Virus record (IMG/VR): IMGVR_UViG_3300036797_000015 | Span: 9,826-73,825 of that record | Source: a virus | Taxonomy: Duplodnaviria; Caudoviricetes | Reading direction: 5' to 3' (one strand) | DNA length: 64,000 nucleotides | Part shown: in pieces, positions 2,109 to 18,140 of the stretch | Layout of the letters: every line of letters begins with the position of its first letter | Numbering within the stretch: the first letter of the stretch is position 1 | The notes under the pieces: generated by a model | Told to the model about the DNA's origin: nothing | Seen by the model: only the letters and a program-made list of their open reading frames with translations | Database searches by the model: none | Program-made: the position numbers and the translations under genes

Positions 2109-2816
2109 TTGGCAGACATTGGGAACCAAAACATCCAGGCGACAATGGAGGCTTTGGCTTGCCGCGAGACTGCGGAGTATATCATCAGCCACGAGCAGCT
2201 ATATGTGGCGGAACAAGTTGAGGGTGCCTCCGAGATAATTGACTGGTCTCTAGGCAAAGCGCCAAAGAACGGTCTATGTCTCGAATTTGGCATAGGGTTT
2301 GGCCGAACGCTCAAGCGAATCGCTGCACAACGCTATGTCCACGGGTTTGACAGTTTCAAAGGTCTACCGGAAGCCTGGCGCTCTGGACTACCTAAAGGCA
2401 CTTTCAGCAATGCCGGTATGGTCAAAGAACAGATTGTAACTAAACTTCACAACTTACATGACGAGGATGCCAGTCGTGGTGGAGAGATACATGTTGGTTG
2501 GTTCAATGAAACGCTGCCAAAGTGGATTGAATATTACCAGTTACAGCTAGAGCGTGGCATTGACTATATCCATCTTGACTCAGACCTCTACAGTTCCGCG
2601 GTGACCATCCTTGAAGGTGTTAAGGAATACCTCAAGCCGGGTAGCGTCATCCTGTTTGATGAGTACTGGAACTATCCCGGGTGGAAGCTAGATGGGCACG
2701 GAGAACACGCCGCGCTAATGGACTGGAGTATTCCCGATGTTGCTTGGGAGTACATAGGTTACAATCCTATTGGGCAAGAAGTAGCAATTAGAATGAAGAG
2801 GAATCGTGACAAATAA
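2109..2816 (+). CDS. Class I SAM-dependent O-methyltransferase, TylF/MycF-like
   Basis: LEFGIGFG, GFDSFKGLPE, GWFNETLP, IHLDSDLYSS, FDEY motifs. Confidence 0.85.
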   Translation: MADIGNQNIQATMEALACRETAEYIISHEQLYVAEQVEGASEIIDWSLGKAPKNGLCLEFGIGFGRTLKRIAAQRYVHGFDSFKGLPEAWRSGLPKGTFSNAGMVKEQIVTKLHNLHDEDASRGGEIHVGWFNETLPKWIEYYQLQLERGIDYIHLDSDLYSSAVTILEGVKEYLKPGSVILFDEYWNYPGWKLDGHGEHAALMDWSIPDVAWEYIGYNPIGQEVAIRMKRNRDK

Positions 2817-3684
2817 CCCTAGAGTGTATATCCCCAGCCGTAGCCGCTGGGAGAATGTCCCTAAGCTAACCAAAGCCTGGGACGATGAGATGTTCGATGT
2901 CGTGTTCTCTGTAGAGCCAGACGAGTTGGAGAAGTATGAAGCCGAGATTGATCGTGCTGGCGCTCGTGAGTTCGCTTCTTGTATTGCTTTGCCTGACCGC
3001 AATCTCGGTGTGGGATTTAGCCGAACATTCTGCTTAGAGCACGCCGCGAGTGATGGGCTGGAAAGCATCATCTGTTCGGACGACGACATCAAGCCGAATA
3101 CCGGCCGCAATGGCGAATCTGACGCCGGTATGGATAAGTTGATTGAGATATGTGAAGACCCGATGGTGCTTGGTTGTACCGCATATTACTCATACCTAGA
3201 CCTCATGCTCGGCATCAAGGGTAAGGATCGCAAAGACGTTATCATTGCGCCGAACTGTATTGTTAGGCTGTTCGGCCTGAACGTGAAGGAATCGCTCGAC
3301 CTTGGCGGGTTTGACGCGAGTCTGAAGTGCGGTGATGACGCTGACTTCTTGATCCGTGGTATCTATGCTGGCTTCCCGTGGCTTATCCACCTTGGCGCTA
3401 AGGCTGTCAGTTTCGCACCCAGGTTCGCGACAGGAGGTGTAGCCGCGCTGGAGGATGCTGTAAGCGTAGGCGAGGTGAAAGGCGCCAAGGGCGACGCTAC
3501 CCGCGAAGCCGTCCGCATCATCGCTGAGAAGTTTCCTGATATTGCTACTGCGGTGCGCCCAGACAAGTTAAGCTACAAGTGGCGTCAGCTATATGATAAC
3601 GAGCTACCAGACTGGAAGCATTGGTCTCCGCTACATGGCGGCAATATCAACAACTACTTTGGTGAGGGCTGGGTATGTCCGTAG
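2806..3684 (+). CDS. GT-A fold glycosyltransferase (phage base-glycosyltransferase-like)
   Basis: VYIPSRSR start, GVGFSRTFCL, SDDD (DxD), CGDDADF. Confidence 0.75.
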   Translation: MTNNPRVYIPSRSRWENVPKLTKAWDDEMFDVVFSVEPDELEKYEAEIDRAGAREFASCIALPDRNLGVGFSRTFCLEHAASDGLESIICSDDDIKPNTGRNGESDAGMDKLIEICEDPMVLGCTAYYSYLDLMLGIKGKDRKDVIIAPNCIVRLFGLNVKESLDLGGFDASLKCGDDADFLIRGIYAGFPWLIHLGAKAVSFAPRFATGGVAALEDAVSVGEVKGAKGDATREAVRIIAEKFPDIATAVRPDKLSYKWRQLYDNELPDWKHWSPLHGGNINNYFGEGWVCP

Positions 3685-4992: not shown

Positions 4993-5921
4993 TGGCAAAT
5001 CTGGAATTGCTCGACCTGCCAGATGACATCGTAGACCTACAGGATGAGGATGAGAATTACAACCTCCTGGTCTACGCTGATTCTGGTGTCGGCAAAACGG
5101 TATTCGGCTGTTCAGACGACAGAGTGCTTGTCGTAGCGACAGAAGATGCCGGAGGTGGCGGGGGAACTATCTCCGCCAAGCGCTTTGGCAGTACGGCGCA
5201 GAAGTGGAAGGTCAAGTCGTGGACCGATATTGTGCGGGCCTACGACTGGCTGTCGAAGCAGGACCCAATCCCGTTCGATTGGGTATTTATCGACAGTTTG
5301 ACTGACGCGCAGTCAATGTGTATGCGGGATGTCTTGGAGAAGGCCACCAAGGAGAATCCGCATCGTGATCCGGATGTGCCGTTGATTGGCGACTGGCAGC
5401 CGTACTACAACAAATTCGAGCGCATGGTGAAATTGTTTAACTCCCTGCCAGTTCACTGCCTGTATTCAGCTCTACAGCAGGAGGAACAGGATGAGGAGGA
5501 AGAAACTGTAGTGCTCCCAATGCTTCAGGGCAAGGGTACGCAGTACGCCAAGAAGGTTGCTTCTTGGATGACCAGTTTCGGCAACATGCGCGTTCGTCGG
5601 CGTCCCACCGGGGAAACTGACGACGATGGCAAGAAGAAGTATGAGGAGGTCCGCGTTATTCAGTGGGCCGCTAGCAAATCCGTTATGGCTAAGGATCGCA
5701 CGCGTTGCTTGGAGCCACGCACTGTGAACCTGAACCTGAAGGAAGTGCGCGAACTGCTTGAGAGCGGTCCAAAGCCGTCTACTCAACCAGGACGTGTAGT
5801 CAAGAGGCCCAAAGCGAATGATGTTGTTCGCGACGAGCCCAAAGCAGAAGAGTCAGTGAATGGCGAATCTGAGGTCAACGAGGAAGATCTGGTTACTGCC
5901 GGAGAGGATTGGGATAAGTGA
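4992..5921 (+). CDS. AAA_24/Sak4-like ATPase (single-strand annealing protein)
   Basis: YADSGVGKT Walker A, VFIDSLT Walker B, AKDR motif; exonuclease-ATPase-SSB context. Confidence 0.8.
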   Translation: MANLELLDLPDDIVDLQDEDENYNLLVYADSGVGKTVFGCSDDRVLVVATEDAGGGGGTISAKRFGSTAQKWKVKSWTDIVRAYDWLSKQDPIPFDWVFIDSLTDAQSMCMRDVLEKATKENPHRDPDVPLIGDWQPYYNKFERMVKLFNSLPVHCLYSALQQEEQDEEEETVVLPMLQGKGTQYAKKVASWMTSFGNMRVRRRPTGETDDDGKKKYEEVRVIQWAASKSVMAKDRTRCLEPRTVNLNLKEVRELLESGPKPSTQPGRVVKRPKANDVVRDEPKAEESVNGESEVNEEDLVTAGEDWDK

Positions 5922-6616
5922 AAGTAAAGTGGGATACTGACGGCAAGGGTGTCACTGCGAGTACTGGCCGGTATGCCGGACCTGACTTGGAGAAGGGCAG
6001 TTATGTCGTCAAGTTGAAGCGCATGACCATCGTCAAGATCAAGGCTAAGGCGAGTCCCAATTTCAACAAGCCTCGCATCAACCTGATCATGGAAGTCTGC
6101 GGGCCAGATAAGGCCAGTGAGTACTTCGGACACCCGATCTTTGATGGCTTGAACATCATCGAATCTGGCCGAGGTTACGTCAACGCATTCCTCCACGCTC
6201 TGACTGACGGATCTGACAAGCAGAAGAAAGCAATCGAAGCTGCTTTCTGGCCGCCCAACGGTCCTGATGCCAAGCGCGAGAAGCGTCGCAACTCTGAGGA
6301 AACTGATCTTCATGTCAAGAAGATTGGGCCGTGGAAGATTGGGTCGCCGAATGGGGAATTGCTTCTCCAGGTGACAGCTAAGCCTGACCACGACCTCAAG
6401 GGCGCATTCCGTGCCGCTGTGACTCAGTATCTGCCCTACCAGGGCGCAGATAACCTCAGCAGCGCTGCGGACGATGATGATTTCGATGACGACGATGAGG
6501 ACTTTGTTGTTGATGCCGACGAAATTGGCGGCGATAACGACAAGCTCATCAGCGACCTCGATGCGGATGATGACGGATTTGTGGATGTTGTAGGGGACGA
6601 CGAGCCACCGTTCTGA
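5918..6616 (+). CDS. Putative ssDNA-binding protein
   Basis: Position after Sak4-like gene; very acidic tail ending DDEPPF. Confidence 0.7.
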   Translation: MKVKWDTDGKGVTASTGRYAGPDLEKGSYVVKLKRMTIVKIKAKASPNFNKPRINLIMEVCGPDKASEYFGHPIFDGLNIIESGRGYVNAFLHALTDGSDKQKKAIEAAFWPPNGPDAKREKRRNSEETDLHVKKIGPWKIGSPNGELLLQVTAKPDHDLKGAFRAAVTQYLPYQGADNLSSAADDDDFDDDDEDFVVDADEIGGDNDKLISDLDADDDGFVDVVGDDEPPF

Positions 6617-6648
6617 TTCCATGAGCGGCAGTTGAATTGAGAACGCTC

Positions 6649-6657
6649 TGCCATAAT
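6649..6657 (+). promoter_or_regulatory. Candidate extended -10 promoter (TGC-CATAAT)
   Basis: TGn plus near-consensus -10 in an intergenic gap; no good -35. Confidence 0.45.
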
Positions 6658-6679
6658 CAAAACGCGAACTCCGTACCGG

Positions 6680-6741
6680 CCTGGCGGTGAAAATCGTAAA
6701 CTGCGGTAGTGTGGAAGCTAGATCTGCGCTATTGGCCCAGG
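6680..6741 (+). ncRNA. Candidate three-way-junction leader RNA
   Basis: CCTGG/CCAGG closing stem, 4-bp hairpin, and a 12-bp hairpin (6704-6734) with five G-U pairs. Confidence 0.4.
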
Positions 6742-6767
6742 ACACCCAAACTTATACAGGAGTTACA

Positions 6768-6935
6768 ATGTCAAGGACAGAACCACACGAATTTGAACCA
6801 GTCATGATATGTGGTCACTGCCAGGGACTACACGAGGATTGTAAATGTGAAGATACCACGCCGGAAGAAACGGACGAGTGCGAAGTCTGCGGACGAGTAG
6901 AAGGTGCCAGCATTCACGAGGTGGACGACGAATGA
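6768..6935 (+). CDS. Small Cys/His-rich zinc-binding protein
   Basis: ACAGGAG RBS; HEFEP..CGHC..H..CKC..CEVCG..IH. Confidence 0.7.
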   Translation: MSRTEPHEFEPVMICGHCQGLHEDCKCEDTTPEETDECEVCGRVEGASIHEVDDE

Positions 6936-7750
6936 AGTCTGTAGCCATTTTGGGATGTGGACCAGCGGGTATGATGGCCGCACTCGCTGCGGATATGTCT
7001 GGGTGGGACTTCCGCATTTACAGCCGCAAAGTTAAGTCACCACTATACGGTGCGCAGTACTTACACAAGGAGATACCCAAGGTTGATTGTGGGCCTCCGC
7101 ATTTGGTGAAGTACGAGTTAACGGGTACGCCGGAACAGTACCGGCAAAAGGTCTATGGGCCTACCTGGGACGGTACGGTATCGCCAGAGGATCTGTCGGA
7201 TAACCATAATGCTTGGAGCCTACGCAGAGCTTACAAGCAGCTATGGCGCTGGTACAACAGCGAGATTACAGATTCGACCATTAGCCCGCTCTGGCACGAC
7301 AGTGAATTCAAGCAAGACATACTACATCGAGAATATGACCTTGTTGTAAGTACGGTACCTCGCAAGATCTGGGCAGAGCCTGGCGACGTATTTGAGTCCA
7401 CCAAGGTATGGGCGCTAGGCGACACCGAAAGTGATCGTGTACCATATAGCCTTAGACCGCCAATGTGGAGCGTACACCTTAATGGTATGCCGCAAATTTC
7501 ATGGTACAGGGTAAGCAATATCTATGGTTACTGTACGGTCGAGTGGCCATACACGCAGTATAAGGCACCACAGATGCTACAGCCTCCGCCAATATCCGGC
7601 GCTAGCATAGTGGAGAAGCCTCTGCGGCATAACAGCAAAGCCGCGAGTGACTTTATACACCTTGGACGGTACGGTGCCTGGGAGAAGGGCATACTTACCA
7701 GTGATGTATTTGACCAAGCATGGAAAGTGTTCCAGGAGGATAAGATATGA
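6932..7750 (+). CDS. FAD-dependent oxidoreductase, UDP-galactopyranose-mutase-like
   Basis: ILGCGPAG Rossmann motif, GAQYLH, VSTVP, HLGRYGAW C-terminal FAD motif. Confidence 0.75.
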   Translation: MKSVAILGCGPAGMMAALAADMSGWDFRIYSRKVKSPLYGAQYLHKEIPKVDCGPPHLVKYELTGTPEQYRQKVYGPTWDGTVSPEDLSDNHNAWSLRRAYKQLWRWYNSEITDSTISPLWHDSEFKQDILHREYDLVVSTVPRKIWAEPGDVFESTKVWALGDTESDRVPYSLRPPMWSVHLNGMPQISWYRVSNIYGYCTVEWPYTQYKAPQMLQPPPISGASIVEKPLRHNSKAASDFIHLGRYGAWEKGILTSDVFDQAWKVFQEDKI

Positions 7751-8246: not shown

Positions 8247-8394
8247 CCTTGGCTTCTGCCCAATCAATGATGGGCCTTGCGGTAAGTGCCCCCACGACCG
8301 CTATGAGCATATATTCCATGCGGCTTTTTGCCAAGAGTGTAGAAGTTGTAATTCTTGGGAATGCGCTATCTGTGGAGGTTGTGCAGATACATGA
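8209..8394 (+). CDS. Small Cys-rich hypothetical protein
   Basis: Multiple CxxC motifs; stop overlaps HAD start. Confidence 0.6.
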   Translation: MSLKQATDHKQDNLGFCPINDGPCGKCPHDRYEHIFHAAFCQECRSCNSWECAICGGCADT

Positions 8395-9026
8395 AACCAG
8401 TAGTAGCAATTGACATCGATGGGACATTAGGAGATTATCATTCCCACTTTTTGCAATTCGCTAGTGGGTGGTACGGTCGGGAGATGCCTGAAGCCTCTAC
8501 CATTAACCCAGGACTGCCCTTACACAAGTTCATGCGTACATCAAAAGCAACCTACCGGCAGTGTAAGCTTGCGTATCGTCAAGGAGGACTTGAACGGTCC
8601 ATGCCTGTCTACACAGGAGCTGCAGAACTTTGCCGAAGCGTGCGAAAAGCTGGCGCGGAACTATGGCTTTGTACCACTCGGCCTTACCTTAAGCTTGACA
8701 CCCAATCCCCAAATACCCGCCACTGGCTGAAACGTAACCAAATACAGTATGACCATATGCTATCGGGACCAAACAAATACCGCGACCTGGTGAAGAATGT
8801 ATACCCACCACGCATAGTATGTGTACTGGATGACCTGCCGGAGATGTGCGAGCAAGCTAAGAGCCTGAACCTGCTACCAGTGCTACGGGACCAACCATAC
8901 AATAGGCACTATATGGTAGCGACTGTAGCAAATATAGAAGTATTCCGCGCAATGAATATGCGGCAAGCACAGGAGATAATCTTGAAGAGAATACAAACAT
9001 GGAAGGCTGATCATGTGGAACGATAA
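8391..9026 (+). CDS. HAD-superfamily phosphatase (5'(3')-deoxyribonucleotidase-like)
   Basis: AIDIDGTL motif I, CTTRP motif II, LDDLPE motif IV. Confidence 0.85.
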   Translation: MKPVVAIDIDGTLGDYHSHFLQFASGWYGREMPEASTINPGLPLHKFMRTSKATYRQCKLAYRQGGLERSMPVYTGAAELCRSVRKAGAELWLCTTRPYLKLDTQSPNTRHWLKRNQIQYDHMLSGPNKYRDLVKNVYPPRIVCVLDDLPEMCEQAKSLNLLPVLRDQPYNRHYMVATVANIEVFRAMNMRQAQEIILKRIQTWKADHVER

Positions 9027-9595: not shown

Positions 9596-10525
9596 ATGGG
9601 AAGTATGACATATGTGTCGCTTCACCACCATACTACCTTCAGCTATGGTGACGGTTATGACTTGCCTAAGAACCACGTTGAGTTCTGTGAAAATGCGGGA
9701 ATGACCGCGATGGCCGTAACCGAGCACGGTAACACTAGCTCGCACCCAGCATTGGAGAAGGCTTGTGAGGGAACCAAAGTCAAACCCATCTTTGGCTTGG
9801 AGGGATATATCGCACCCCCAGGGGAGAAGCGAAAGTGCCACCAGACAATCTTGGCCATGGACCAAATTGGCTACCAGAACCTTAACAGACTCGTTTCCCA
9901 AAGCTGGAGAGACTTCTATCAATGGCCGACGATACACCTAGATCAATTGGAGAAGTACAGTGAAGGACTCATTGTGCTTAGCGGATGCGCAGATTCCCAA
10001 CTATCGTGTACGCTGTTGGGTGGCAAGTATTACGGAGACAAAAGAGACAGTTTCTCAACTGCCGACTTTGCCAATTCCGTTAGGCTTGTGGAATGGTACA
10101 AGAGTGTTTTTGGCGACAGATTCTATCTTGAGTGCCAGAGATTTCCTGGTCTTGGTAGGACTTGTGCGCTCAATCCGGCATTCGAGAAGCTGGGCCGAGA
10201 GTGCGGAGTTGGGCTTGCTGCTACGAGCGATTGTCATTATGTCTTTGCTAGAGACAACGAGATGCAAAAGATTCTTCATGCGGCTCATCGTGGTTCTAGC
10301 GTTGACGCAGTCGCTGCGTCGTGGGAGTACGGAATCACCCTCAACATACCGGATTCCGACGAGCGCGTAATTGACGACCTGAAACAGACCGGGCTATCGG
10401 ACGATGGCGCATACGCAGCATGGATAAATACGAGCCTCATCGCTAATCGTTGTAATGTGAAGCTGCCTAAGGTAGAGCCAATCAAGTACCGCATTGATGA
10501 AAAGGACTTTGCCCCATGGGTATAG
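9596..10525 (+). CDS. dnaE: DNA polymerase III alpha, N-terminal PHP (proofreading) half
   Basis: HHHTTFSYGDG, AVTEHGN, GLEGY, HQT, LSGC, TSDCHY metal ligands. Confidence 0.9.
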   Translation: MGSMTYVSLHHHTTFSYGDGYDLPKNHVEFCENAGMTAMAVTEHGNTSSHPALEKACEGTKVKPIFGLEGYIAPPGEKRKCHQTILAMDQIGYQNLNRLVSQSWRDFYQWPTIHLDQLEKYSEGLIVLSGCADSQLSCTLLGGKYYGDKRDSFSTADFANSVRLVEWYKSVFGDRFYLECQRFPGLGRTCALNPAFEKLGRECGVGLAATSDCHYVFARDNEMQKILHAAHRGSSVDAVAASWEYGITLNIPDSDERVIDDLKQTGLSDDGAYAAWINTSLIANRCNVKLPKVEPIKYRIDEKDFAPWV

Positions 10526-10566
10526 CAATTTGGATTATCGCGGTATGTTGTATTGTTGACACATTC

Positions 10567-10641
10567 ATGAAGTTTGACCATTGGGTGTTGCCTATTTGGC
10601 AAGCTTACAAGCGTCGCAGGTGGCTCAAGCATGGCAAATAA
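10567..10641 (+). CDS. Possible 24-aa micro-ORF (MKFDHWVLPIWQAYKRRRWLKHGK)
   Basis: Open frame in the dnaE gap overlapping the next start; no RBS seen. Confidence 0.3.
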   Translation: MKFDHWVLPIWQAYKRRRWLKHGK

Positions 10642-10822
10642 GCATGAGCTAGCGGATGATGCCACGATTCGCTCTGGCAACGTATACATCGATGTTTGCA
10701 ATATTTGTAACCAAAGACCATCTGTACACTTTGATGACTTCTACGGGTACCATTGTAACTTGTGCCACTTTAAGCACCCGATGCGACGCACTACAAGCCC
10801 GTGGACAGGTGCACCATTATGA
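10631..10822 (+). CDS. Small zinc-finger protein inserted between the dnaE halves
   Basis: CNIC...HCNLCH; its TGA overlaps the ATG of dnaE-C. Confidence 0.65.
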   Translation: MANKHELADDATIRSGNVYIDVCNICNQRPSVHFDDFYGYHCNLCHFKHPMRRTTSPWTGAPL

Positions 10823-13170
10823 CAGCTCCGCAGAAGGATGATGTTGCGGCCAGAGTTGCTAAGCTAGTCGGCGCATACTCGACTGGCTCTGAGCAGATTC
10901 GACTTGGCAAGTCGAGTCCTGAGGCTATAGCACTGTTGCGGAAATGGCTTAACTTTGGTTGGGATTTCCGCATCAAGCGCACTAGGAACGCAAACCTAAT
11001 CAAAAACAAGCAGGAGTATATCAATCGTGTCGAATCTGAACTTGAGCTTATCATCAGTAAAGGCTTTGTTGACTACTTCCTCGTCACCTCTGATATTGTG
11101 CGTTGGGCGAAGGATAACAAAATTCCTGTTGGACCAGCACGCGGATCTGCAGCCGCGAGCGTCGTGTGCTATTTGCTCAGGATCACAGAAGTGGATCCAA
11201 TTCAGCACCCAAACATGCTCTTTGAGCGTTTCATCGACCCGACACGCGAAGAATTGCCCGATATTGACCTCGACTTTGACGACGAGCAACGGTACAAAGT
11301 TTTTCGTTATGCGGCACAAAAGTATGGTGTGGACAATGTCGGACATATTGGGAACTTCACACGATACCGAGGGAAGAACAGTCTAGATGATGTTGCTAGG
11401 GTATACCACATCCCGAAGTGGGAGGTTGAAACTGTCAAAGGCCTCATTATTGAGCGAAGCGGTGGTGACTCCCGCATCTCAGATTCGCTTGAGGACACTT
11501 TCATTACCTTTCAGAAGGCGCAAGATGTACTTGACAGGCATCCTGACTTGGCGAATGCGGTTCGGCTTGAAGGCAATTACCGTGGGATGGGCGTACACGC
11601 CGCGGGATTGGTTATCGCTAACGCACCTATCAATGATTACTGTGCAACGTACACCCGTGAAGTCGCAGGGCGTCCGACGAGTGTCGTGGCTTATGACAAG
11701 AAAGATGCAGCATATCTAGGCTTCCTGAAGCAGGACATACTCGGCCTTGCGACTATGGGTATGGTCGGCCACGCACTGCGAATGATAGGGATGGACCTTG
11801 AAGACCTTTACCGGGTTCCACTTACAGACCCGAAAACTCTGGCAGCTTTCAGACGTAACGATGTTATCGGAATCTTTCAGTTTGAGGGGCGAGCCACGAG
11901 GCTTGTCTGTCGTGATGTCGTACCCGACCACTTCCAACACCTCGCAGATATCAATGCTTTGTCTAGACCTGGGCCACTCTTCTCTGGTATGGCAGCAGCA
12001 TACGTTGATGTTAAACATAGCAGGAAAGAAATTGAACATTATCACCCCATCGTGGATGAGTACACTGCTGGGACGTATGGCCAGATTATATATCAGGAGC
12101 AGGTGCTACGAATAATCCGCGAGCTTGGCGGGTTCCCCATGACCAAAGTCCATGCTATCCGCCAGATTATCTCGCAGAAGCTTGGTGAGGCCCAATTTGA
12201 TAGCATGTACAAGGAGTTTGAGGAAAACGCATGTGCGAAGCACGGTTGTACTCCACAGCAAGCTCGCCGCATTTGGAGGTTCATGGCGACAAGTGCGACA
12301 TACAGCTTCAATATTGCCCATTGTATCTCTTACTCGATGCTGGCATTTTGGCAAATGTGGTTGAAGCAACACCACCCCACTGCCTTCTACGCCGCAGCGT
12401 TACGTAAGACACCTGAAGACAAGAAGACAAATCATGCCAGAAGGAATCGACTGCTTAAAGACGCCAAAAGGCATTCCGTTGAGGTGGTACCACCTGACAT
12501 CCTATGGAGCGAAGCAAATTGGTCTGTCACCGACGACGGTCGTGTGTGTGCCGGGTTTCGACAGATTCCTGGTATCGGGCCAGCTATGTCAAATGCAATA
12601 TTGGATTACTTGGATTCCAAAGACTGGGAGGCCGATCCTGCTTGGGAAGACCTCATTAACATTAAAGGCATCGGCCCCAAGACACTTGAGCGAATAACCA
12701 CTTTCGCTATGGACCCAGACCCGTTTAGCCTGGATCTGATCACAAACATGATGAAGGATTTGCGGGCTAATTTGCGGCCGGGGAACCCATACTACCTGCC
12801 TACGCCAACGCATACATCTGACACGTTACCCAGGGAGGGGAAGCATAACGTAACCTGGTGTGGTATCCCGATGATTCGTGAGTACAAGGATCTAATTGAG
12901 GATGAGCGAGCCAGGACCGGCTTAAGCGTTGAGGAGATTCTTGAAAACACCAAAGACCCGCACCTGTTGAAGTCGTGCGTGTTGAAGTGTATAGATGATG
13001 GCGATGAGGAAGTGTACATACGGTTTAACCGTTGGTACTTCCCCAATTTCGCTGACAAAATAGAAAGTCTGCGCCTAGGTGGAGCAGATGCCGTAATTGT
13101 TGAAGGGATAAAGCGTGAAGGCTTTGGGGTTAGCATACAGGCACGCGACTTGTGGGCAGTTGAGCTATGA
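10819..13170 (+). CDS. dnaE: DNA polymerase III alpha, catalytic C-terminal half
   Basis: GFVDYFL, GPARGSAA, FERF, PDIDLDFD, GVHAAG, YQEQ, YSFN.AH, HhH. Confidence 0.95.
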   Translation: MTAPQKDDVAARVAKLVGAYSTGSEQIRLGKSSPEAIALLRKWLNFGWDFRIKRTRNANLIKNKQEYINRVESELELIISKGFVDYFLVTSDIVRWAKDNKIPVGPARGSAAASVVCYLLRITEVDPIQHPNMLFERFIDPTREELPDIDLDFDDEQRYKVFRYAAQKYGVDNVGHIGNFTRYRGKNSLDDVARVYHIPKWEVETVKGLIIERSGGDSRISDSLEDTFITFQKAQDVLDRHPDLANAVRLEGNYRGMGVHAAGLVIANAPINDYCATYTREVAGRPTSVVAYDKKDAAYLGFLKQDILGLATMGMVGHALRMIGMDLEDLYRVPLTDPKTLAAFRRNDVIGIFQFEGRATRLVCRDVVPDHFQHLADINALSRPGPLFSGMAAAYVDVKHSRKEIEHYHPIVDEYTAGTYGQIIYQEQVLRIIRELGGFPMTKVHAIRQIISQKLGEAQFDSMYKEFEENACAKHGCTPQQARRIWRFMATSATYSFNIAHCISYSMLAFWQMWLKQHHPTAFYAAALRKTPEDKKTNHARRNRLLKDAKRHSVEVVPPDILWSEANWSVTDDGRVCAGFRQIPGIGPAMSNAILDYLDSKDWEADPAWEDLINIKGIGPKTLERITTFAMDPDPFSLDLITNMMKDLRANLRPGNPYYLPTPTHTSDTLPREGKHNVTWCGIPMIREYKDLIEDERARTGLSVEEILENTKDPHLLKSCVLKCIDDGDEEVYIRFNRWYFPNFADKIESLRLGGADAVIVEGIKREGFGVSIQARDLWAVEL

Positions 13171-13445
13171 GTAACCCAGCAGAACGCGCCGCGGACGAGC
13201 AGCAGAAGCGCGACCTTGCCAAGAAAGCTGGCGGGTTTATGGATGCGTTCAAGAAGGCACCGCCGTTTATGTCGGTGTCTGAGTCACTTAAGGCTTCCGG
13301 TGTGAACTATAGAGTCATGCCGGTGATGGTAGGCGACCAGACCGAGGAATGCTTGGTCGTTATCATGAATGAGATGATCGCCGGAGAATGGCGACATATG
13401 ACCGGAGGAATCGAATATGACGGACTCAGACGAGTCGATGAGTGA
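13167..13445 (+). CDS. Hypothetical protein
   Basis: ATGA-coupled ORF. Confidence 0.7.
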   Translation: MSNPAERAADEQQKRDLAKKAGGFMDAFKKAPPFMSVSESLKASGVNYRVMPVMVGDQTEECLVVIMNEMIAGEWRHMTGGIEYDGLRRVDE

Positions 13446-14379
13446 ACCAATACAGGCTTTTATCAGCCGATCTTTAAGGGATAAGCGCACGGAAGGCATC
13501 ACGAAGGATGTGGCATTTAACCGCAAGTCATTCGATGATGGCTATCCACGCAATCCCAAGGATAACCAAACGGTTCAGGTCGGAACTGATGGCATCGAAG
13601 TCAAGCTGGTACAAGGCATCAACGAAGGACAGCTTCAGACTACACTTTCGAGAGCAATTAACGCCACCATCGGGGTGGATCTACATAACCCGCCTGCCGA
13701 AGCAGACTGGGAAGAGATGCTCCAGGGTGGCCTTCAAACTGCGCTGGAGACACAGGTTATTGTCTTTGAAGTCTCCGGTGTTTCCCGCACTTGTACGCAC
13801 CAACTGGTTCGTTCACGTCGCGCTGCGTTTCACCAGCAATCTCAACGGGCACATTACTATGGTGACCATCCCGAGGTCAGGTGTCCGGAATCGGTTTGGG
13901 CTAACGATAGAGCGCGAGAAGCGTATCTGAAGGCAGTAGAGGCTAGTTGGGATGCTTACCGAATCGCATGTGAAGAGAATGTGAGCTACCAAGATGCTAG
14001 GTACACTTTGCCAGAGGCCACCACAAACTACATACTCTGCGAGTACACTATTCGGGAGTTCTTGGACGTTTACGCTTACCGTGCCTGTTCAATGTTCTCC
14101 TGGGAAATTGTATCAGTCATGCGAGCTATGGGCGCAGCTCTTACAGATGCCCACCCGTGGATGAAGAAGTATGTCAAGATCAGCTGCGAGAAAACTAGCG
14201 GTGCTGTTGATCTGGGCAAACTCGGTATGATGGCTGATGCAAGCGTGCCAGAGAATGGATATGCCCACGCGTGTACGTTCCAGGGCTGGGAGGAAGTGGA
14301 CGGACAATGCGACTTCCCGTGGGCCAGGGAGAGCAATCGCACGTTCAGGAGTAAGCAGCATGCTATCAAGCAGAAATGA
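13438..14379 (+). CDS. thyX: Divergent ThyX-like flavin-dependent enzyme
   Basis: FEVSGVSR..THQLVRSRRAAFHQQSQR, ARYTLP; several canonical residues altered. Confidence 0.8.
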   Translation: MSEPIQAFISRSLRDKRTEGITKDVAFNRKSFDDGYPRNPKDNQTVQVGTDGIEVKLVQGINEGQLQTTLSRAINATIGVDLHNPPAEADWEEMLQGGLQTALETQVIVFEVSGVSRTCTHQLVRSRRAAFHQQSQRAHYYGDHPEVRCPESVWANDRAREAYLKAVEASWDAYRIACEENVSYQDARYTLPEATTNYILCEYTIREFLDVYAYRACSMFSWEIVSVMRAMGAALTDAHPWMKKYVKISCEKTSGAVDLGKLGMMADASVPENGYAHACTFQGWEEVDGQCDFPWARESNRTFRSKQHAIKQK

Positions 14380-14558
14380 CATTCGTGATAAGCCAAGGAC
14401 GGGAGTGCCCAGAGTGTGGCAGGATATTTGTACTTGAACATGCCAAATTTCCTGCCCACTTCAAGAATGCAAAGGTAAAGGAATGGTGTGGCCTATCGAA
14501 GAAGCATTACCCAAACATAGTCAAATACAGTAGGTATAACAAGCAACGTTACAAATAA
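14376..14558 (+). CDS. Small zinc-ribbon protein
   Basis: CPECGR...H...C; ATGA coupling. Confidence 0.6.
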   Translation: MTFVISQGRECPECGRIFVLEHAKFPAHFKNAKVKEWCGLSKKHYPNIVKYSRYNKQRYK

Positions 14559-14595
14559 ATCCTTGGCAGGTGCGCCTTGAATCTGTAGAGCCAGA

Positions 14596-15288
14596 TTGGA
14601 GGTGCTGAAAGTGACGGCGGTGAAACAACGTGGTATTACTACAATTGATATCAGCAGGAATAGACGACGGAGGCGTGGGTACGTAAGAGATGAAGAAATC
14701 ACCTACAGAGATGCAACAGTTATCGCCGTCGACCCTGGAGGGACCACTGGTTGGAGCCTTATCCAGGTACCTCCAGAAGCATTATGTGAACCCGATGTCC
14801 CCATCCTGGCAAACATTTGGCAGTTCCAACATGGACAGGTTGATTGCGGCGTCCACAGAGGAAATCTGGCAACCAGTCTCCACCCAGGGATTAGTACAGA
14901 AGGAGAATTTTCAGGTATTTATGACCTTGTTGCATTTATTACCTCATGGCCATCTTCGGCCGTGGTTATTGAGGACTTTGCCCTCAGACAACTTAGAATG
15001 GACCGTGATCTGCTTAGTCCTGTGCGGGTCACCGCCGCAATTGGTTATGAGCTATGGAAAAACGGGCGCGACTACCACGTTCAAACTCCGACCGACGCTA
15101 AACGTGTCTGTACCGATGAACGTCTGAAGGAGTGGAACATGTACGATAGGACTGGCGGCCTTCAGCACGCTAGGGATGCCGATAGACACGCGATACTATT
15201 CCTGCGGAAAGCTAAGGCAAAAGCGTCCTTTAGAGCTCAGGCCTGGCCGCATCTTTTCTCAGAGCGTGGGGCTTACTATAATGGCTAG
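14596..15288 (+). CDS. RuvC-like Holliday junction resolvase (start uncertain)
   Basis: VIAVDPGGTTGW, VVIEDF, HARDADRH. Confidence 0.8.
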   Translation: MEVLKVTAVKQRGITTIDISRNRRRRRGYVRDEEITYRDATVIAVDPGGTTGWSLIQVPPEALCEPDVPILANIWQFQHGQVDCGVHRGNLATSLHPGISTEGEFSGIYDLVAFITSWPSSAVVIEDFALRQLRMDRDLLSPVRVTAAIGYELWKNGRDYHVQTPTDAKRVCTDERLKEWNMYDRTGGLQHARDADRHAILFLRKAKAKASFRAQAWPHLFSERGAYYNG

Positions 15289-15580
15289 GAGTAACAAACA
15301 CGCTCTAGCTGGTTACGCTATTGGTGGAGTCCACAAACGCATTAGAAGAATAAGGGGCCGCTCCAAATCCTACAAATGTGTAGATTGTGGTAATCAAGCG
15401 TGTGATTGGTCATGGATACATAACACCGATCCACTAGACATATTTAACTATGAGCCTAGGTGTAAGAGCTGCCATCAAAAGTACGACAGGTTCGGATTCT
15501 TACCTGGGCATAGTAAAAACAAAGGCACTACCGCTTGGATAAATCGACGTCGTGATGCACTTGGTAGATTCACCTCATGA
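15281..15580 (+). CDS. HNH-like endonuclease (His-Me finger)
   Basis: HKRI..CVDCGNQACDWS..NYEPRCKSCHQKYD. Confidence 0.7.
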   Translation: MARSNKHALAGYAIGGVHKRIRRIRGRSKSYKCVDCGNQACDWSWIHNTDPLDIFNYEPRCKSCHQKYDRFGFLPGHSKNKGTTAWINRRRDALGRFTS

Positions 15581-16155
15581 ACCGACATGCCTTCAGTCAG
15601 AAATGTATACCGGGTTGTACTTGTGGTAGACACAATCGACCTAAATATGGGTCGAACACTACAGAGTGCGAGGCTTGCGGTACCAAGGAAGGCCCATTCG
15701 TCCAAGGCTACTGTCCCAAGCACTACCAGCGCTTTAGGCGTACCGGCGACCCATTCGGTGATGGTAGACGCTTCAACAGTGTAGAGAATACCCGTAACTT
15801 CTGGTGTGTCTGCTCGCATTATAGTGACGACCACAAAGGCGAGAAACGGACAGGTTCGTGCAGGGTAAAGGGTTGTGATTGCAAGAAGCCAACTAAGGTC
15901 AATTTGGAGTACCTTAATGACTGTATGCGGAAGATCAAAGGTCTGGGATTCTTCAACCATACGGCTAAGTTAGCAACTTGCTCGCAATGCCTTGAGCCCA
16001 TACAGATTGGTAGGTGGCACGAACCAGAGACAATCAAACGCGCCTTGTTACATAGACGACGAGATTGCCCCGGGCTGCGTAAGGCTAGAGCGGAAAACAG
16101 TAGCCCGAACCGGACTAATGGAGTAGACTACGATTATGGCCAAATACGGCACTGA
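15577..16155 (+). CDS. Multi-zinc-finger protein
   Basis: CEAC..YCPKHYQRFRRTGDP, CVCSH..H..SC..CDC, CSQC. Confidence 0.7.
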   Translation: MNRHAFSQKCIPGCTCGRHNRPKYGSNTTECEACGTKEGPFVQGYCPKHYQRFRRTGDPFGDGRRFNSVENTRNFWCVCSHYSDDHKGEKRTGSCRVKGCDCKKPTKVNLEYLNDCMRKIKGLGFFNHTAKLATCSQCLEPIQIGRWHEPETIKRALLHRRRDCPGLRKARAENSSPNRTNGVDYDYGQIRH

Positions 16156-16402
16156 CTGGGAGAAGCGCATGGAGCTTGCCCTCAAGGGCGGCCCATACCT
16201 TGGGCATCCTATGCTGCCAATCCCATTGCGGGGTGAAGAGGCACGCACCGAGCGTGTGAGTAGTTATGTTGAGCTTGACTTCCTCAAATTCATGGAGGAA
16301 TACAAAGCCCGTGGCGGGTTTAGGTCAGTCAGCGAAGTGCTGCGACGGCTCGCAATTCTAGGAGCAATGACCGAGGGATACGAGCTACAGGAGGCATCGT
16401 GA
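16136..16402 (+). CDS. Ribbon-helix-helix DNA-binding protein
   Basis: ERVSSYV strand, helix, SVSEVLRRL. Confidence 0.65.
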   Translation: MAKYGTDWEKRMELALKGGPYLGHPMLPIPLRGEEARTERVSSYVELDFLKFMEEYKARGGFRSVSEVLRRLAILGAMTEGYELQEAS

Positions 16403-16662
16403 AGGATCTGGTGATTATGCTTGAGAGTCGCGTAAAGGAAATAGATGATTGGCAACGCGAATCTGACCAAGAGCGTGAGAAATTGATGAGTAGGCTGAAT
16501 GACCTGGATGCCAGGTCACAAGAGGCAGCCCACGATAAGCGTCGCATAAAGGCTGCGATCAAAGCACTTGAAAAAGATACTGATGCAGAGAATAAGTTGG
16601 CTGAAGTATGTGGCGAGCTAGCTGCCCCATCCCCACCATATTGGCCAGGAAATGACCGATGA
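16399..16662 (+). CDS. Coiled-coil hypothetical protein
   Basis: Heptad-rich; GTGA coupling. Confidence 0.65.
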   Translation: MKDLVIMLESRVKEIDDWQRESDQEREKLMSRLNDLDARSQEAAHDKRRIKAAIKALEKDTDAENKLAEVCGELAAPSPPYWPGNDR

Positions 16663-16991
16663 GAAAAGCACTGATGACTTCAACGCTGTACGAGAGACAG
16701 CCGAGATTGCCGAAGCGTTCGACATATACTCGGGTCATGTGTGTGATGGTTGCCCTGGGTGGAAGCCTAGCTGCTGCGTGTTTGAGTATGACCCAAGCGA
16801 AAGCCTCGAATAACTATTGCACCTTAGATAACCCAAGTGCCCCGTACAATTCTATCTGTACTGGCAATGGTACGTGGTGTAACTTAGGCATGCAGTACGT
16901 CTGCTCGCCCATACCGGGTATGCCAGGAACCTGGAACCCAAGAGGCTATACCCCGAGTGGTACCGATGCGACATACCCACTACTACCCTAG
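16659..16991 (+). CDS. Predicted exported Cys-containing protein
   Basis: Basic-hydrophobic leader ending AKA; four Cys in the mature part. Confidence 0.65.
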   Translation: MRKALMTSTLYERQPRLPKRSTYTRVMCVMVALGGSLAAACLSMTQAKASNNYCTLDNPSAPYNSICTGNGTWCNLGMQYVCSPIPGMPGTWNPRGYTPSGTDATYPLLP

Positions 16992-17313
16992 CGGCCCACC
17001 TTGGTGGGCGACGGTAGCCGTTCTTGGCCTAGTTGCTATGGCCTGGAAGTGGCTGCTAATACTCGTGTTTGTTCTGTGCTTCTTGTATGCTCTTGGTAAA
17101 CTGAATATGGCATACGAGGAACGCAAGCAAGCAAAGGCGTTTGAGTTAGAGAACTACAGACTCCACGCCGACCACGAAAATGAAATGTACCAGCGCTATG
17201 GCGACATCTATGGTGATTTTCCACCTGCTAGTCAGGTTTACCCGCCAGCTGGTCCGACCGGGACTGTGCCACTACCTAGGCCAGTCAACCCTGATATATA
17301 TGGAGGTTGGTAA
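16957..17313 (+). CDS. Membrane protein
   Basis: N-terminal hydrophobic segment(s), Pro-rich tail. Confidence 0.65.
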   Translation: MVPMRHTHYYPSGPPWWATVAVLGLVAMAWKWLLILVFVLCFLYALGKLNMAYEERKQAKAFELENYRLHADHENEMYQRYGDIYGDFPPASQVYPPAGPTGTVPLPRPVNPDIYGGW

Positions 17314-17720
17314 TGTCACATAGCATTGAGACGTATGAGCGCGAGGATGGTAAGCGCGGCTGGAGGATTGTGAGTGGCGGTGATGTCGTCGCTAACGATG
17401 CTGGCCAGGGCTACAATAACGAGCAGGACAGCTTGGATGCTCTGTTCGGTATGTTCTTTGGCGCATACGATGACAGCTTTCTGGAACTGTACCAGAAGTG
17501 GCAGAGCTACGCTGGTGAGAAGCCACCAGGTTCAGAGACAGGCCCGAACGTCTGGATCCAGGATGGCTCAGCGAAGCCACCTGAGGCACGCGATGCGGAT
17601 GCGCCTAACTACGAGTCTGAGACAACCGATATGGCAGAACGTACAAGCGCTGAGCGTGATGCTGAATTTGAGGCGGGGGCAGCCTTGGGTGCAAAGGTGG
17701 AGAACCAGAATGAGCAATAA
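17313..17720 (+). CDS. DUF1508/YegP-like protein with acidic tail
   Basis: YEREDGKRGWRIVSGGDVVANDAGQGYNNEQD. Confidence 0.6.
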   Translation: MSHSIETYEREDGKRGWRIVSGGDVVANDAGQGYNNEQDSLDALFGMFFGAYDDSFLELYQKWQSYAGEKPPGSETGPNVWIQDGSAKPPEARDADAPNYESETTDMAERTSAERDAEFEAGAALGAKVENQNEQ

Positions 17721-17928
17721 GGCAGAGGCGAGTGCATCAGCTTCAGGCGGAATTGGTGTCGTGGGCCTTCTTGGTGTGGCTTTTGTGGTCCTTAAGCTAG
17801 CGCACATAATCGATTGGTCTTGGGTGTGGGTGTTGGCCCCATTCTGGATTGGTGCGGTAGCCGGATTCTTTGTGCTGCTCATGGTCGTTGTGTTTATTTT
17901 GGTGAAAGCTTTTAAGGAAGTGAAGTGA
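17710..17928 (+). CDS. Small two-TM membrane protein
   Basis: GIGVVGLLGVAFVVLKL..IDWSWVWVLAPFW, a common phage family. Confidence 0.8.
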   Translation: MSNKAEASASASGGIGVVGLLGVAFVVLKLAHIIDWSWVWVLAPFWIGAVAGFFVLLMVVVFILVKAFKEVK

Positions 17929-18140
17929 AGAACTTTGACCAGATCAGAACCCGTGAAGCAATTAACATTGCTGTAACCGTAGACATTCCGGGGACAACCT
18001 TCACCAGGAGTATATCTGTTGCTCCTGACGTTGGTGAACTTGTATCTGATGTATTGAAGATAGCCCTGACAGAGTTGTGCGGGCAAGCAGTCGGTATCGT
18101 GCGAGCGGTAAGTGATGAGGTGAGAAATGCCAATGACTGA
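17925..18140 (+). CDS. Hypothetical protein
   Basis: GTGA coupling. Confidence 0.6.
   Translation: MKNFDQIRTREAINIAVTVDIPGTTFTRSISVAPDVGELVSDVLKIALTELCGQAVGIVRAVSDEVRNAND

What the first reader, a model, noticed from the sequence alone, without database searches (positions are those of the whole stretch)
13438..14379. ThyX homolog lacking the canonical His residues, possibly with new chemistry
Seen: GLQTALET aligns to the ThyX H-x-S/T-P-F-E-H segment, and RSRRAAFHQQSQRA aligns to RHRx7SxRY. So the folate-stacking His, the RHR His and the SxRY Tyr are all replaced, while the catalytic Ser and Args remain. There is also an N-terminal extension. Inference: it binds FAD and a pyrimidine nucleotide but may not methylate; it could hydroxylate or hydroxymethylate dUMP/dCMP to give a handle for glycosylation.
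Basis: partly seen in the sequence, partly recalled or inferred. Interest (0 to 1): 0.72.

Follow-up and report, generated by a model that had tools for sequence, protein, structure and literature searches.

The report
His-less phage ThyX-like flavoenzyme
This phage gene encodes an intact relative of the flavin enzyme that makes thymidylate, but it belongs to an almost virus-only branch that has lost three hallmark active-site residues; it may supply a modified thymine precursor rather than ordinary dTMP, which has not been shown.

Summary
ORF 13417/13438-14379 has a ThyX (Thy1) fold. It keeps every dUMP-binding residue. L106, S133 and A145 replace T. maritima His53, His79 and Tyr91. A roughly 50-aa N-terminal arm and a 60-aa Cys-bearing tail are added.

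These changes are not a one-off. They are fixed across hundreds of relatives and mark one branch of the family, which was almost absent from 185,579 cellular genomes. That branch also holds the ThyX-like genes of Pbunavirus (PB1-like) Pseudomonas phages.

- In all 50 related phage records this is the only thymidylate-synthase-type gene.
- In most loci it lies in one block with a small FAD protein, a HAD phosphatase and a DnaE-type polymerase.
- A 2025 preprint found sugar-bearing thymidine derivatives in Pbunavirus DNA and assigned no genes. Their masses fit O-substituted 5-hydroxymethyl-dU.

I therefore rate "flavin-dependent dUMP hydroxymethylase" (0.45) slightly above "divergent ordinary dTMP synthase" (0.40). 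Nothing here is biochemical.

dCMP is an unlikely substrate.

Follow-up agents of this scan reached the same link on other genomes, in PB1-like, Wifcevirus and actinophage windows.

The parts
13417..14379 (+). ThyX-like ORF, 320 aa (alternative start 13438)
   Evidence: ORF and translation. Pfam Thy1 99.5 bits. phrog_35637 E 2.7e-109. SD GGAGG lies 8 nt before 13417.
13417..13569 (+). N-terminal arm, residues 1-51, absent from solved ThyX. It holds the invariant D31, A33, F34, N35 (AFNR, nt 13513-13524) and P47.
   Evidence: Outside the structural match, where model 52/56-260 equals a whole ThyX chain. Invariant columns in A1.
13570..14196 (+). ThyX fold core, residues 52-260
   Evidence: AF2 mean pLDDT 82.5. 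Foldseek and VIA-align to T. maritima, M. tuberculosis and C. glutamicum ThyX and to PolB, Z 13.6-15.6.
13726..13752 (+). GGLQTALET: His53->Leu106, Glu58 kept, His59->Thr112
   Evidence: HMM alignments to PDB ThyX. Invariant in the clade.
13810..13851 (+). RSRRAAFHQQSQRA: RHR->RSR, Asn85->His139, Ser88 and Arg90 kept, Tyr91->Ala145
14080..14109 (+). RACSMFSWEI: Arg174 equivalent (R222) kept, Asp176->Cys224, His178->Met226
   Evidence: C224 co-varies with the three tail cysteines. Inteins in two relatives sit immediately before this Cys.
14185..14310 (+). Tail cysteines C257 (14185-14187), C286 (14272-14274) and C298 (14308-14310). Together with C224 they form a putative four-Cys metal site.
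   Evidence: Invariant in A1. Across 125 representatives, 104 have all four and 9 have none. Geometry was not measured.
6878..7750 (+). Partner FAD protein (virus-only family, phrog_8720), co-located with the ThyX-like gene in most relatives
   Evidence: tblastn found it in 58 of 73 loci, always upstream in one block. GxGxxG motif. AF2 mean pLDDT 89; nearest folds are group A flavin monooxygenases, D-amino-acid oxidase and UDP-galactopyranose mutase, TM about 0.5.
8355..9026 (+). HAD phosphatase (NT5C-like), conserved in the same block
   Evidence: Pfam NT5C 26.7 bits against a cut-off of 24.8, and phrog_415. Found in 57 of 73 loci.
9596..13170 (+). Split DnaE-type polymerase (PHP domain 9596-10525, body 10801-13170) directly upstream of the ThyX-like gene
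   Evidence: Pfam PHP. ORF. Same order in Onyinye gp82-86 and Rooney gp51-46. 37% identity to Pbunavirus F8 gp055.
2109..3684 (+). Accessory pair: TylF-like methyltransferase (2109-2816) and TAGT-family glycosyltransferase (2806-3684)
   Evidence: Pfam Methyltransf_24/TylF and TAGT 41.6 bits against a cut-off of 27.5; phrog_842. TAGT is in only 4 of 50 related records.

Best explanation
The gene encodes a working flavoenzyme of a 'His-less' branch of the ThyX family that is almost confined to viruses.

Proposed mechanism:
1. The enzyme binds a flavin and dUMP as ThyX does. All phosphate- and uracil-contacting residues are kept.
2. It moves a one-carbon unit from the flavin N5 to C5 of dUMP.
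3. The branch has discarded the His53-Tyr91-Asn85 network and the RHR histidine. It has added an N-terminal arm and a four-cysteine site next to the catalytic Arg.
4. I propose that the exocyclic-methylene intermediate is hydrated instead of reduced. The product would then be 5-hydroxymethyl-dUMP or a similar C5-CH2-X nucleotide.
5. The phage's own DnaE-type polymerase would incorporate that nucleotide. Later enzymes could decorate it, here possibly the TAGT-family glycosyltransferase.
6. The neighbouring small FAD protein and HAD phosphatase act in the same pathway. Their steps are unknown.

What is shown: the fold, the retained and lost residues, clade-wide fixation, near-restriction to viruses, and conserved gene order. 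What is inferred: flavin and dUMP binding, the product, and the link to DNA modification.
For: Intact enzyme:
- Pfam Thy1 match. Model Z about 15 to ThyX.
- Q129, R132, R134, S142, R144, R195 and R222 are kept and invariant.

The lost residues form one unit:
- In 125 representatives (123 in the tree), H53 and H79 are both present in 57 and both absent in 52. Y91 follows them.
- The tree, built with these sites masked, has a single split, support 0.76.
- Their role in T. maritima: H53 stacks folate or reduced flavin and bonds Y91 and N85. Y91 mutants are about 1000-fold slower in flavin oxidation (PMC11940539).

Chemistry:
- Trapped FDTS intermediates hydrate to hydroxymethyl-dUMP (PMC4913046).

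Near-restriction to viruses:
- The pattern THQLVRTR.GA has 2 true hits in 185,579 species genomes. Both are on MAG contigs of about 50 kb.

Precedent in the same branch:
- Pbunavirus F8 and SMS21 ThyX-like proteins read I-T-A and carry the four Cys. They fall on the non-His side of the tree.
- F8 and 14-1 DNA contain 362 and 390 Da thymidine derivatives at about a quarter of T. No genes were assigned (PMC12191111).
- These masses equal 5-hmdU plus a tetritol or a pentose minus water.
- The one Pbunavirus genome searched whole (SMS21) has no ThyA-type gene and no Tet_JBP match.

Shared module:
- FAD protein, HAD phosphatase, DnaE-type polymerase and ThyX-like gene occur together in 57-58 of 73 loci.
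- The same kinds of genes surround F8 gp059.

This genome:
- It has a TAGT-family glycosyltransferase, no Tet_JBP and no ThyA.
- In relative L074 the TAGT gene is translationally coupled between the FAD protein and the HAD phosphatase.
Against: - There is no biochemical or DNA-composition data for this virus or for any cultured relative (Onyinye, Leopard, Aikoy, the Streptomyces Rooney/Yara group).
- The ThyX-like gene is the only thymidylate-synthase-type gene in 50 of 50 related records. A plain dTMP supply gene would give the same pattern.
- 46 of 50 relatives lack the TAGT glycosyltransferase, and no dNMP kinase was recognised.
- No new polar residue is conserved across the whole His-less branch that could activate water. 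The Tyr91 site is simply variable (A, H, D, W, Y, T).
- Tyr91 is proposed to act before methylene transfer, a step a hydroxymethylase would also need.
- In Pbunavirus about three quarters of T is still ordinary thymidine, and the ThyX-like gene has not been tied to the modification.
- The Tet_JBP searches had no positive control.
Confidence: 0.45

Rival explanations
1. It is an ordinary thymidylate synthase with a divergent mechanism. The enzyme still makes dTMP for phage replication. The His53/Tyr91 gate and direct NADPH use were replaced. The N-terminal arm (for example F34) may take over stacking, and the neighbouring FAD protein may reduce the flavin, possibly through the four-Cys site.
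For: - It is the sole TS-type gene in 50 of 50 related records, with no ThyA.
- It sits in the replication module next to DnaE, as thymidylate synthase genes often do.
- All dUMP-binding and uracil-activating residues are kept.
- The variable Tyr91 site suggests relaxed constraint rather than a new catalytic residue.
- 46 of 50 relatives have no recognisable DNA-glycosylation gene.
- Databases annotate it as a ThyX-like thymidylate synthase.
Against: - It falls below NCBIfam's equivalog cut-off.
- Residues whose mutation cripples T. maritima ThyX are absent.
- The branch is almost absent from cellular genomes.
- It travels with two extra enzymes in most loci. Canonical ThyX is not known to need such partners (general knowledge).
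- Pbunavirus, which has the same branch and no other candidate gene, has modified thymidine.
Confidence: 0.4
2. It has another role. It could act on a different nucleotide (UMP, as PolB does, or dCMP). It could also be a non-catalytic nucleotide- or flavin-binding protein.
For: - The fold is as close to PolB, the UMP/dUMP methylase, as to ThyX (Z 15.4).
- Tyr91 lies in the active-site loop beside the bound nucleotide and is lost.
Against: - The Arg residues that hydrogen-bond uracil O2/O4 (R144, R222) are invariant, which argues against cytosine.
- Strong purifying selection on every catalytic Arg argues against a pseudoenzyme.
- No nucleoside-antibiotic or RNA-modification context was found; the neighbours are replication genes.
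Confidence: 0.1

Closest known systems
Canonical flavin-dependent thymidylate synthase ThyX/FDTS (T. maritima TM0449, M. tuberculosis ThyX, PBCV-1 A674R)
   Same: Same fold (Z about 15) and same Pfam family. The dUMP-binding residues Q75, R78, R80, S88, R90, R147 and R174 are all kept.
   Different: His53, His79 and Tyr91 are replaced, as are His59, Asn85, Asp176 and His178. It has an extra 50-aa N-terminal arm and a 60-aa tail with three Cys plus C224. It scores below the TIGR02170 cut-off. Its branch is almost confined to viruses and is usually accompanied by a small FAD protein and a HAD phosphatase.
ThyX-like proteins of Pbunavirus (F8 gp059, SMS21_059) and of Carpasinavirus and Myosmarvirus phages
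   Same: Same side of the family tree. His53->Ile, RHR->RTR, SxRY->SRA and four Cys. Neighbours are of the same kinds: a Rossmann FAD protein, a HAD phosphatase and a DnaE-type polymerase with 37% identity.
   Different: Only 23-31% identical over the core. They lack the AFNR arm. The tail differs. The partner proteins match only at family or motif level. Pbunavirus DNA is known to carry modified thymidine; nothing is known for this virus.
ThyA-family pyrimidine hydroxymethylases (SPO1-type dUMP hydroxymethylase, T4 gp42 dCMP hydroxymethylase)
   Same: If the favoured reading holds, the reaction outcome (5-hydroxymethyl pyrimidine nucleotide from CH2-THF) and the role as entry step to hypermodification (PMC8989533) would be the same.
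   Different: Unrelated fold and chemistry. No PF00303 match in this genome or in 49 relatives.
PolB, the UMP/dUMP C5-methylase of polyoxin biosynthesis (a ThyX paralogue)
   Same: It is a precedent for a ThyX-fold enzyme with a changed job (PMC5954106). Structural match Z 15.2-15.4.
   Different: PolB still methylates and lies in an antibiotic gene cluster of Streptomyces. I did not compare its motifs here.

Membership tests
ThyX / Thy1 (Pfam PF02511) | Thy1 domain above Pfam's gathering score, and ThyX fold | tested here: met
   99.5 bits against 24.8. Z 13.6-15.6 to 47 PDB entries of ThyX or the ThyX paralogue PolB.
ThyX / FDTS | ThyX motif RHRx7S | tested here: not met
   It reads RSRx7S. 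The His is Ser or Thr throughout the branch.
ThyX / FDTS | Folate- and flavin-stacking His (Tm His53) and its partner Tyr (Tm Tyr91, SxRY) | tested here: not met
   L106 and A145, both invariant. Their roles are described in PMC11940539.
ThyX / FDTS | dUMP-binding and uracil-activating residues (Tm Q75, R78, R80, S88, R90, R147, R174) | tested here: met
   Q129, R132, R134, S142, R144, R195 and R222.
ThyX / FDTS (NCBIfam TIGR02170 equivalog) | Score above the equivalog cut-off | tested here: not met
   76.2 bits against 87.9.
ThyX / FDTS | FAD bound, and dTMP formed from dUMP, CH2-THF and NAD(P)H | not testable with these tools
   This needs enzyme assays.
ThyA-type thymidylate synthases and hydroxymethylases (PF00303) | Thymidylat_synt domain | tested here: not met
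   No match in this genome or in 49 relatives. The control genomes did match.
Thymidine hypermodification pathways based on 5-hmdU (Lee et al., PMC8989533) | Non-canonical thymidine in virion DNA | not testable with these tools
   There are no DNA-composition data for this virus. Data exist only for Pbunavirus.
Thymidine hypermodification pathways based on 5-hmdU | A downstream tailoring enzyme acting on hydroxymethyl-pyrimidine DNA | tested here: inconclusive
   A TAGT-family glycosyltransferase lies at 2806-3684, but only its N-terminal 90 residues match. It is present in only 4 of 50 relatives.

The most novel reading that the evidence does not exclude
The His-less phage ThyX branch is a flavin-dependent dUMP hydroxymethylase, or another non-reducing C5 one-carbon transferase. 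It would be a second, independent origin of 5-hmdUMP synthesis. If so:
- It would be the missing entry enzyme for the unassigned sugar-bearing thymidines of Pbunavirus therapy phages.
- It predicts modified thymidine in Onyinye-like mycobacteriophages, Streptomyces Rooney/Yara-like phages and this virus.
- Here the TAGT-family glycosyltransferase could make a base-J-like glycosyl-hydroxymethyluracil.
Probability: 0.4. Interest if true: 0.85.

Novelty: new variant of a known kind. Interest (0 to 1): 0.68.

Why it matters
Every described thymidine hypermodification starts from 5-hmdUMP made by a ThyA-type enzyme. A ThyX-type route would be new chemistry for a well-studied flavoenzyme.

It would also give a sequence marker (L/I at His53, RTR or RSR, the four Cys, and the partner flavoprotein) for finding phages with modified DNA that current gene-based screens miss. 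These include Pseudomonas therapy phages and mycobacteriophages. Modified DNA affects restriction, CRISPR and sequencing behaviour.

If the enzyme turns out to make plain dTMP, it still shows that ThyX can work without residues thought essential. It would also point to an unstudied four-Cys site and an external flavoprotein partner.

Tried and rejected
Searches that found nothing or could not run:
- Megablast of 10000-18000 against phage records found nothing.
- The search for related loci on genome contigs with alignments A2 and A3 could not run because no conserved stretch was available. I used a DNA pattern instead. It tests only the RTR.GA subgroup, not the query's own RSRRAAF clade.
- Ulmer 2008, Koehn 2012 and Iyer 2013 are not held. 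The 'extended ThyX motif' and the TAGT/JGT relationship therefore rest on my own knowledge.
- Searches for papers on this clade, on ThyX-like phage enzymes or on a ThyX hydroxymethylase found none.

Readings rejected:
- The glycosyltransferase as an obligate partner: TAGT is in 4 of 50 relatives. Rooney's glycosyltransferase and methyltransferase are not homologous to the window's.
- A second thymidylate synthase in these phages: none found.
Its similarity to the C-terminal domain of F8 gp057 is not significant (E 2.1).

Weak or unresolved:
- The window's FAD protein found no match in five Gram-negative phage genomes. F8 gp065 shares only the GxGxxG region and a C-terminal GRxxxW motif. Homology of the partners is not established.
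- The partner's fold did not resolve its function. Monooxygenase, oxidase and mutase folds tie.
- My greedy ORF map called a minus-strand ORF at 5783-6745. tblastn with Onyinye gp76 and gp77 shows the real genes are on the + strand at about 5016-5900 and 5918-6454.

Full report
**What is there.** The window is bases 9826-73825 of a complete 73.8-kb virus record. The ORF at 13417-14379 (+) gives a 320-aa protein. The ATG at 13417 has a GGAGG 8 nt upstream and is the likelier start.

The protein matches Pfam Thy1 at 99.5 bits over residues 100-248 and phrog_35637 'thymidylate synthase' at E 2.7e-109. It falls below NCBIfam's thyX equivalog cut-off, 76.2 against 87.9 bits.

An AlphaFold2 model built on 33 relatives has mean pLDDT 82.5. 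Its residues 52/56-260 superpose on entire chains of ThyX from T. maritima, M. tuberculosis, C. glutamicum, H. pylori and PBCV-1, and on PolB, with Z 13.6-15.6. Residues 1-50 and 261-320 are additions.

Sequence and profile alignments to solved ThyX proteins agree on one register. In T. maritima numbering:

| Status | Residues |
|---|---|
| Changed | H53->L106, H59->T112, H79->S133, N85->H139, Y91->A145, D176->C224, H178->M226 |
| Kept | E58 (E111), Q75 (Q129), R78 (R132), R80 (R134), S88 (S142), R90 (R144), R147 (R195), R174 (R222) |

In 33 relatives of 57-76% identity the new residues are as fixed as the old ones. L106, H139, S142, R144, A145, R195, R222 and C224 are invariant. This is a protein under selection, not a decaying gene.

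**What the lost residues do.** In T. maritima ThyX, His53 stacks on the folate pterin in the ternary complex. It stacks on the reduced isoalloxazine in the resting reduced enzyme, where hydrogen bonds to Tyr91 and Asn85 hold it. Tyr91 is also proposed as the general acid for loss of water from the flavin carbinolamine, and its mutation slows flavin oxidation about 1000-fold (PMC11940539). All three partners of that network are replaced here, so the canonical gating cannot operate.

**It is a branch, not an oddity.**
- An exhaustive HMMER search found 1774 representative clusters at E<=1e-3 and 34 at E<=1e-30. The word-indexed search found 930 proteins at E<=0.001; the best 120 listed all have E<=1e-113.
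- Among 125 full-length representatives, His53 and His79 are both present in 57 and both absent in 52. Tyr91 is kept in 47 of the 57 and lost in 48 of the 52.
- A tree of 123 of them, built with these sites masked, splits once into a His side (68 leaves) and a non-His side (55 leaves), support 0.76.
- On the non-His side, position 53 is nearly always Leu or Ile and position 79 is Thr or Ser. Position 91 drifts (A, H, D, W, Y, T).
- The ThyX-like proteins of Pbunavirus (F8, SMS21), Xanthomonas phage Carpasina and Serratia phage MyoSmar lie on the non-His side.
- The branch is almost absent from cells. A back-translated THQLVRTR.GA pattern found two true genes in 185,579 species genomes, both on MAG contigs of about 50 kb. 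This pattern does not cover the query's own RSRRAAF subgroup.

**A four-cysteine site.** C224, two residues after the catalytic Arg, co-occurs with three cysteines in the C-terminal tail. All four are present in 104 representatives and none in 9, with few mixed cases.
- The site also occurs in many ThyX proteins with canonical His and Tyr. It is missing from the three solved ThyX aligned here.
- Some relatives insert CxxCxGxG units in the loop between the tail cysteines.
- Two relatives carry an intein immediately before C224.
- I read this as a metal site, with zinc more likely than Fe-S. I could not measure geometry.

**Gene context.**
- All 50 related records searched whole, 32 of them at least 90% complete, have exactly this one Thy1 gene and no ThyA.
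- In 57-58 of 73 loci the gene lies in one block with a small FAD protein, a HAD phosphatase and a split DnaE-type polymerase. Mycobacterium phage Onyinye and Streptomyces phage Rooney show the same block.
- The FAD protein belongs to a virus-only family. Its model (pLDDT 89) is equally near group A flavin monooxygenases, D-amino-acid oxidase and UDP-galactopyranose mutase. Its role is open.
- This genome also has a TylF-like methyltransferase and a TAGT-family glycosyltransferase at 2109-3684. It has no Tet_JBP.
- TAGT occurs in only 4 of 50 relatives. In one of them it is translationally coupled between the FAD protein and the HAD phosphatase.

**The outside evidence.** A 2025 preprint showed that Pbunavirus F8 and 14-1 DNA, long thought unmodified, resists enzymes whose sites contain TG. 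It contains new nucleosides of 362 and 390 Da that replace about a quarter of thymidine. These were read as a tetrose sugar-alcohol derivative and a cyclic pentose derivative. The main text names no biosynthetic genes and does not contain the words thymidylate or ThyX (PMC12191111).

By my arithmetic both masses equal 5-hydroxymethyl-dU plus a tetritol or a pentose, minus water. The Pbunavirus genome I searched has no ThyA-type gene, no Tet_JBP match (no positive control) and no TAGT.

In F8, the ThyX-like gp059 lies near three genes of the same kinds as in this window:
- a Rossmann FAD protein (gp065);
- a HAD_PNKP phosphatase (gp057);
- a DnaE-type polymerase 37% identical to the window's.

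The partner proteins match the window's only at family or motif level.

All described thymidine hypermodifications start from 5-hmdUMP made by a thymidylate synthase homologue (PMC8989533). Trapped ThyX intermediates hydrate to hydroxymethyl-dUMP (PMC4913046).

**Verdict.** The protein is a real, conserved, new variant of ThyX.

| Reading | Confidence |
|---|---|
| Non-reducing C5 one-carbon transfer (5-hmdUMP) | 0.45 |
| Plain dTMP synthesis by an altered mechanism | 0.40 |
| Other roles | 0.10 |

- For the second: it is the sole thymidylate-synthase-type gene beside the polymerase, no new catalytic residue is conserved across the branch, and most relatives have no recognisable tailoring gene.
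- dCMP is unlikely because the uracil-reading arginines are kept.

Follow-up agents of this scan reached the same link on PB1-like, Wifcevirus and actinophage windows. I found the preprint independently and checked their claims only in part.

Noticed in passing
window 14080-14310 (C224, C257, C286, C298); representatives P0169, P0180, P0209 and others: A four-Cys site made of R-x-C after the catalytic Arg plus three C-terminal Cys. It is present in most ThyX representatives retrieved, including ones with canonical His53/RHR/SxRY. It is absent from the three solved ThyX aligned here. The counts are all-or-none: 104 against 9. It may be an unstudied metal site of ThyX in general.
   Followed up: partly
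representatives P0172 (610 aa) and P0215 (578 aa): An insertion of about 330 aa immediately before the C224-equivalent Cys. It starts with Cys and ends with HN followed by Cys, so it looks like an intein using C224 as its +1 residue.
   Followed up: no
window 2109-3684; L074:16673-18936: A TylF-like methyltransferase and a TAGT-family glycosyltransferase lie in the early region of a genome with no Tet_JBP. In relative L074 the TAGT gene overlaps the stop of the FAD protein gene by 4 nt and is followed directly by the HAD phosphatase gene.
   Followed up: partly
window 9596-13170: The DnaE-type polymerase is split into a PHP-domain ORF (9596-10525) and the polymerase body (10801-13170), with a small ORF between them, as in Onyinye gp82-84. 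Rooney has a single fused gene.
   Followed up: no
L003 (Rooney gp46), P0034, P0038, P0044, P0094: Some clade members carry CxxCxGxG (DnaJ-type zinc-finger-like) units inserted in the variable loop between the first and second tail cysteines. Others have Cys/His-rich inserts before the GGLQ motif.
   Followed up: no
window 5016-6454: Plus-strand genes homologous to Onyinye gp76 (AAA ATPase, 62% identity) and gp77 lie here. The long minus-strand ORF 5783-6745 is probably spurious.
   Followed up: partly
L088 (Pseudomonas phage F8) 7994-9058: F8 gp057, annotated as polynucleotide kinase, has a HAD_PNKP phosphatase domain, an acidic low-complexity linker and a helical C-terminal domain with a weak DUF6378 match. 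No kinase domain was detected.
   Followed up: partly
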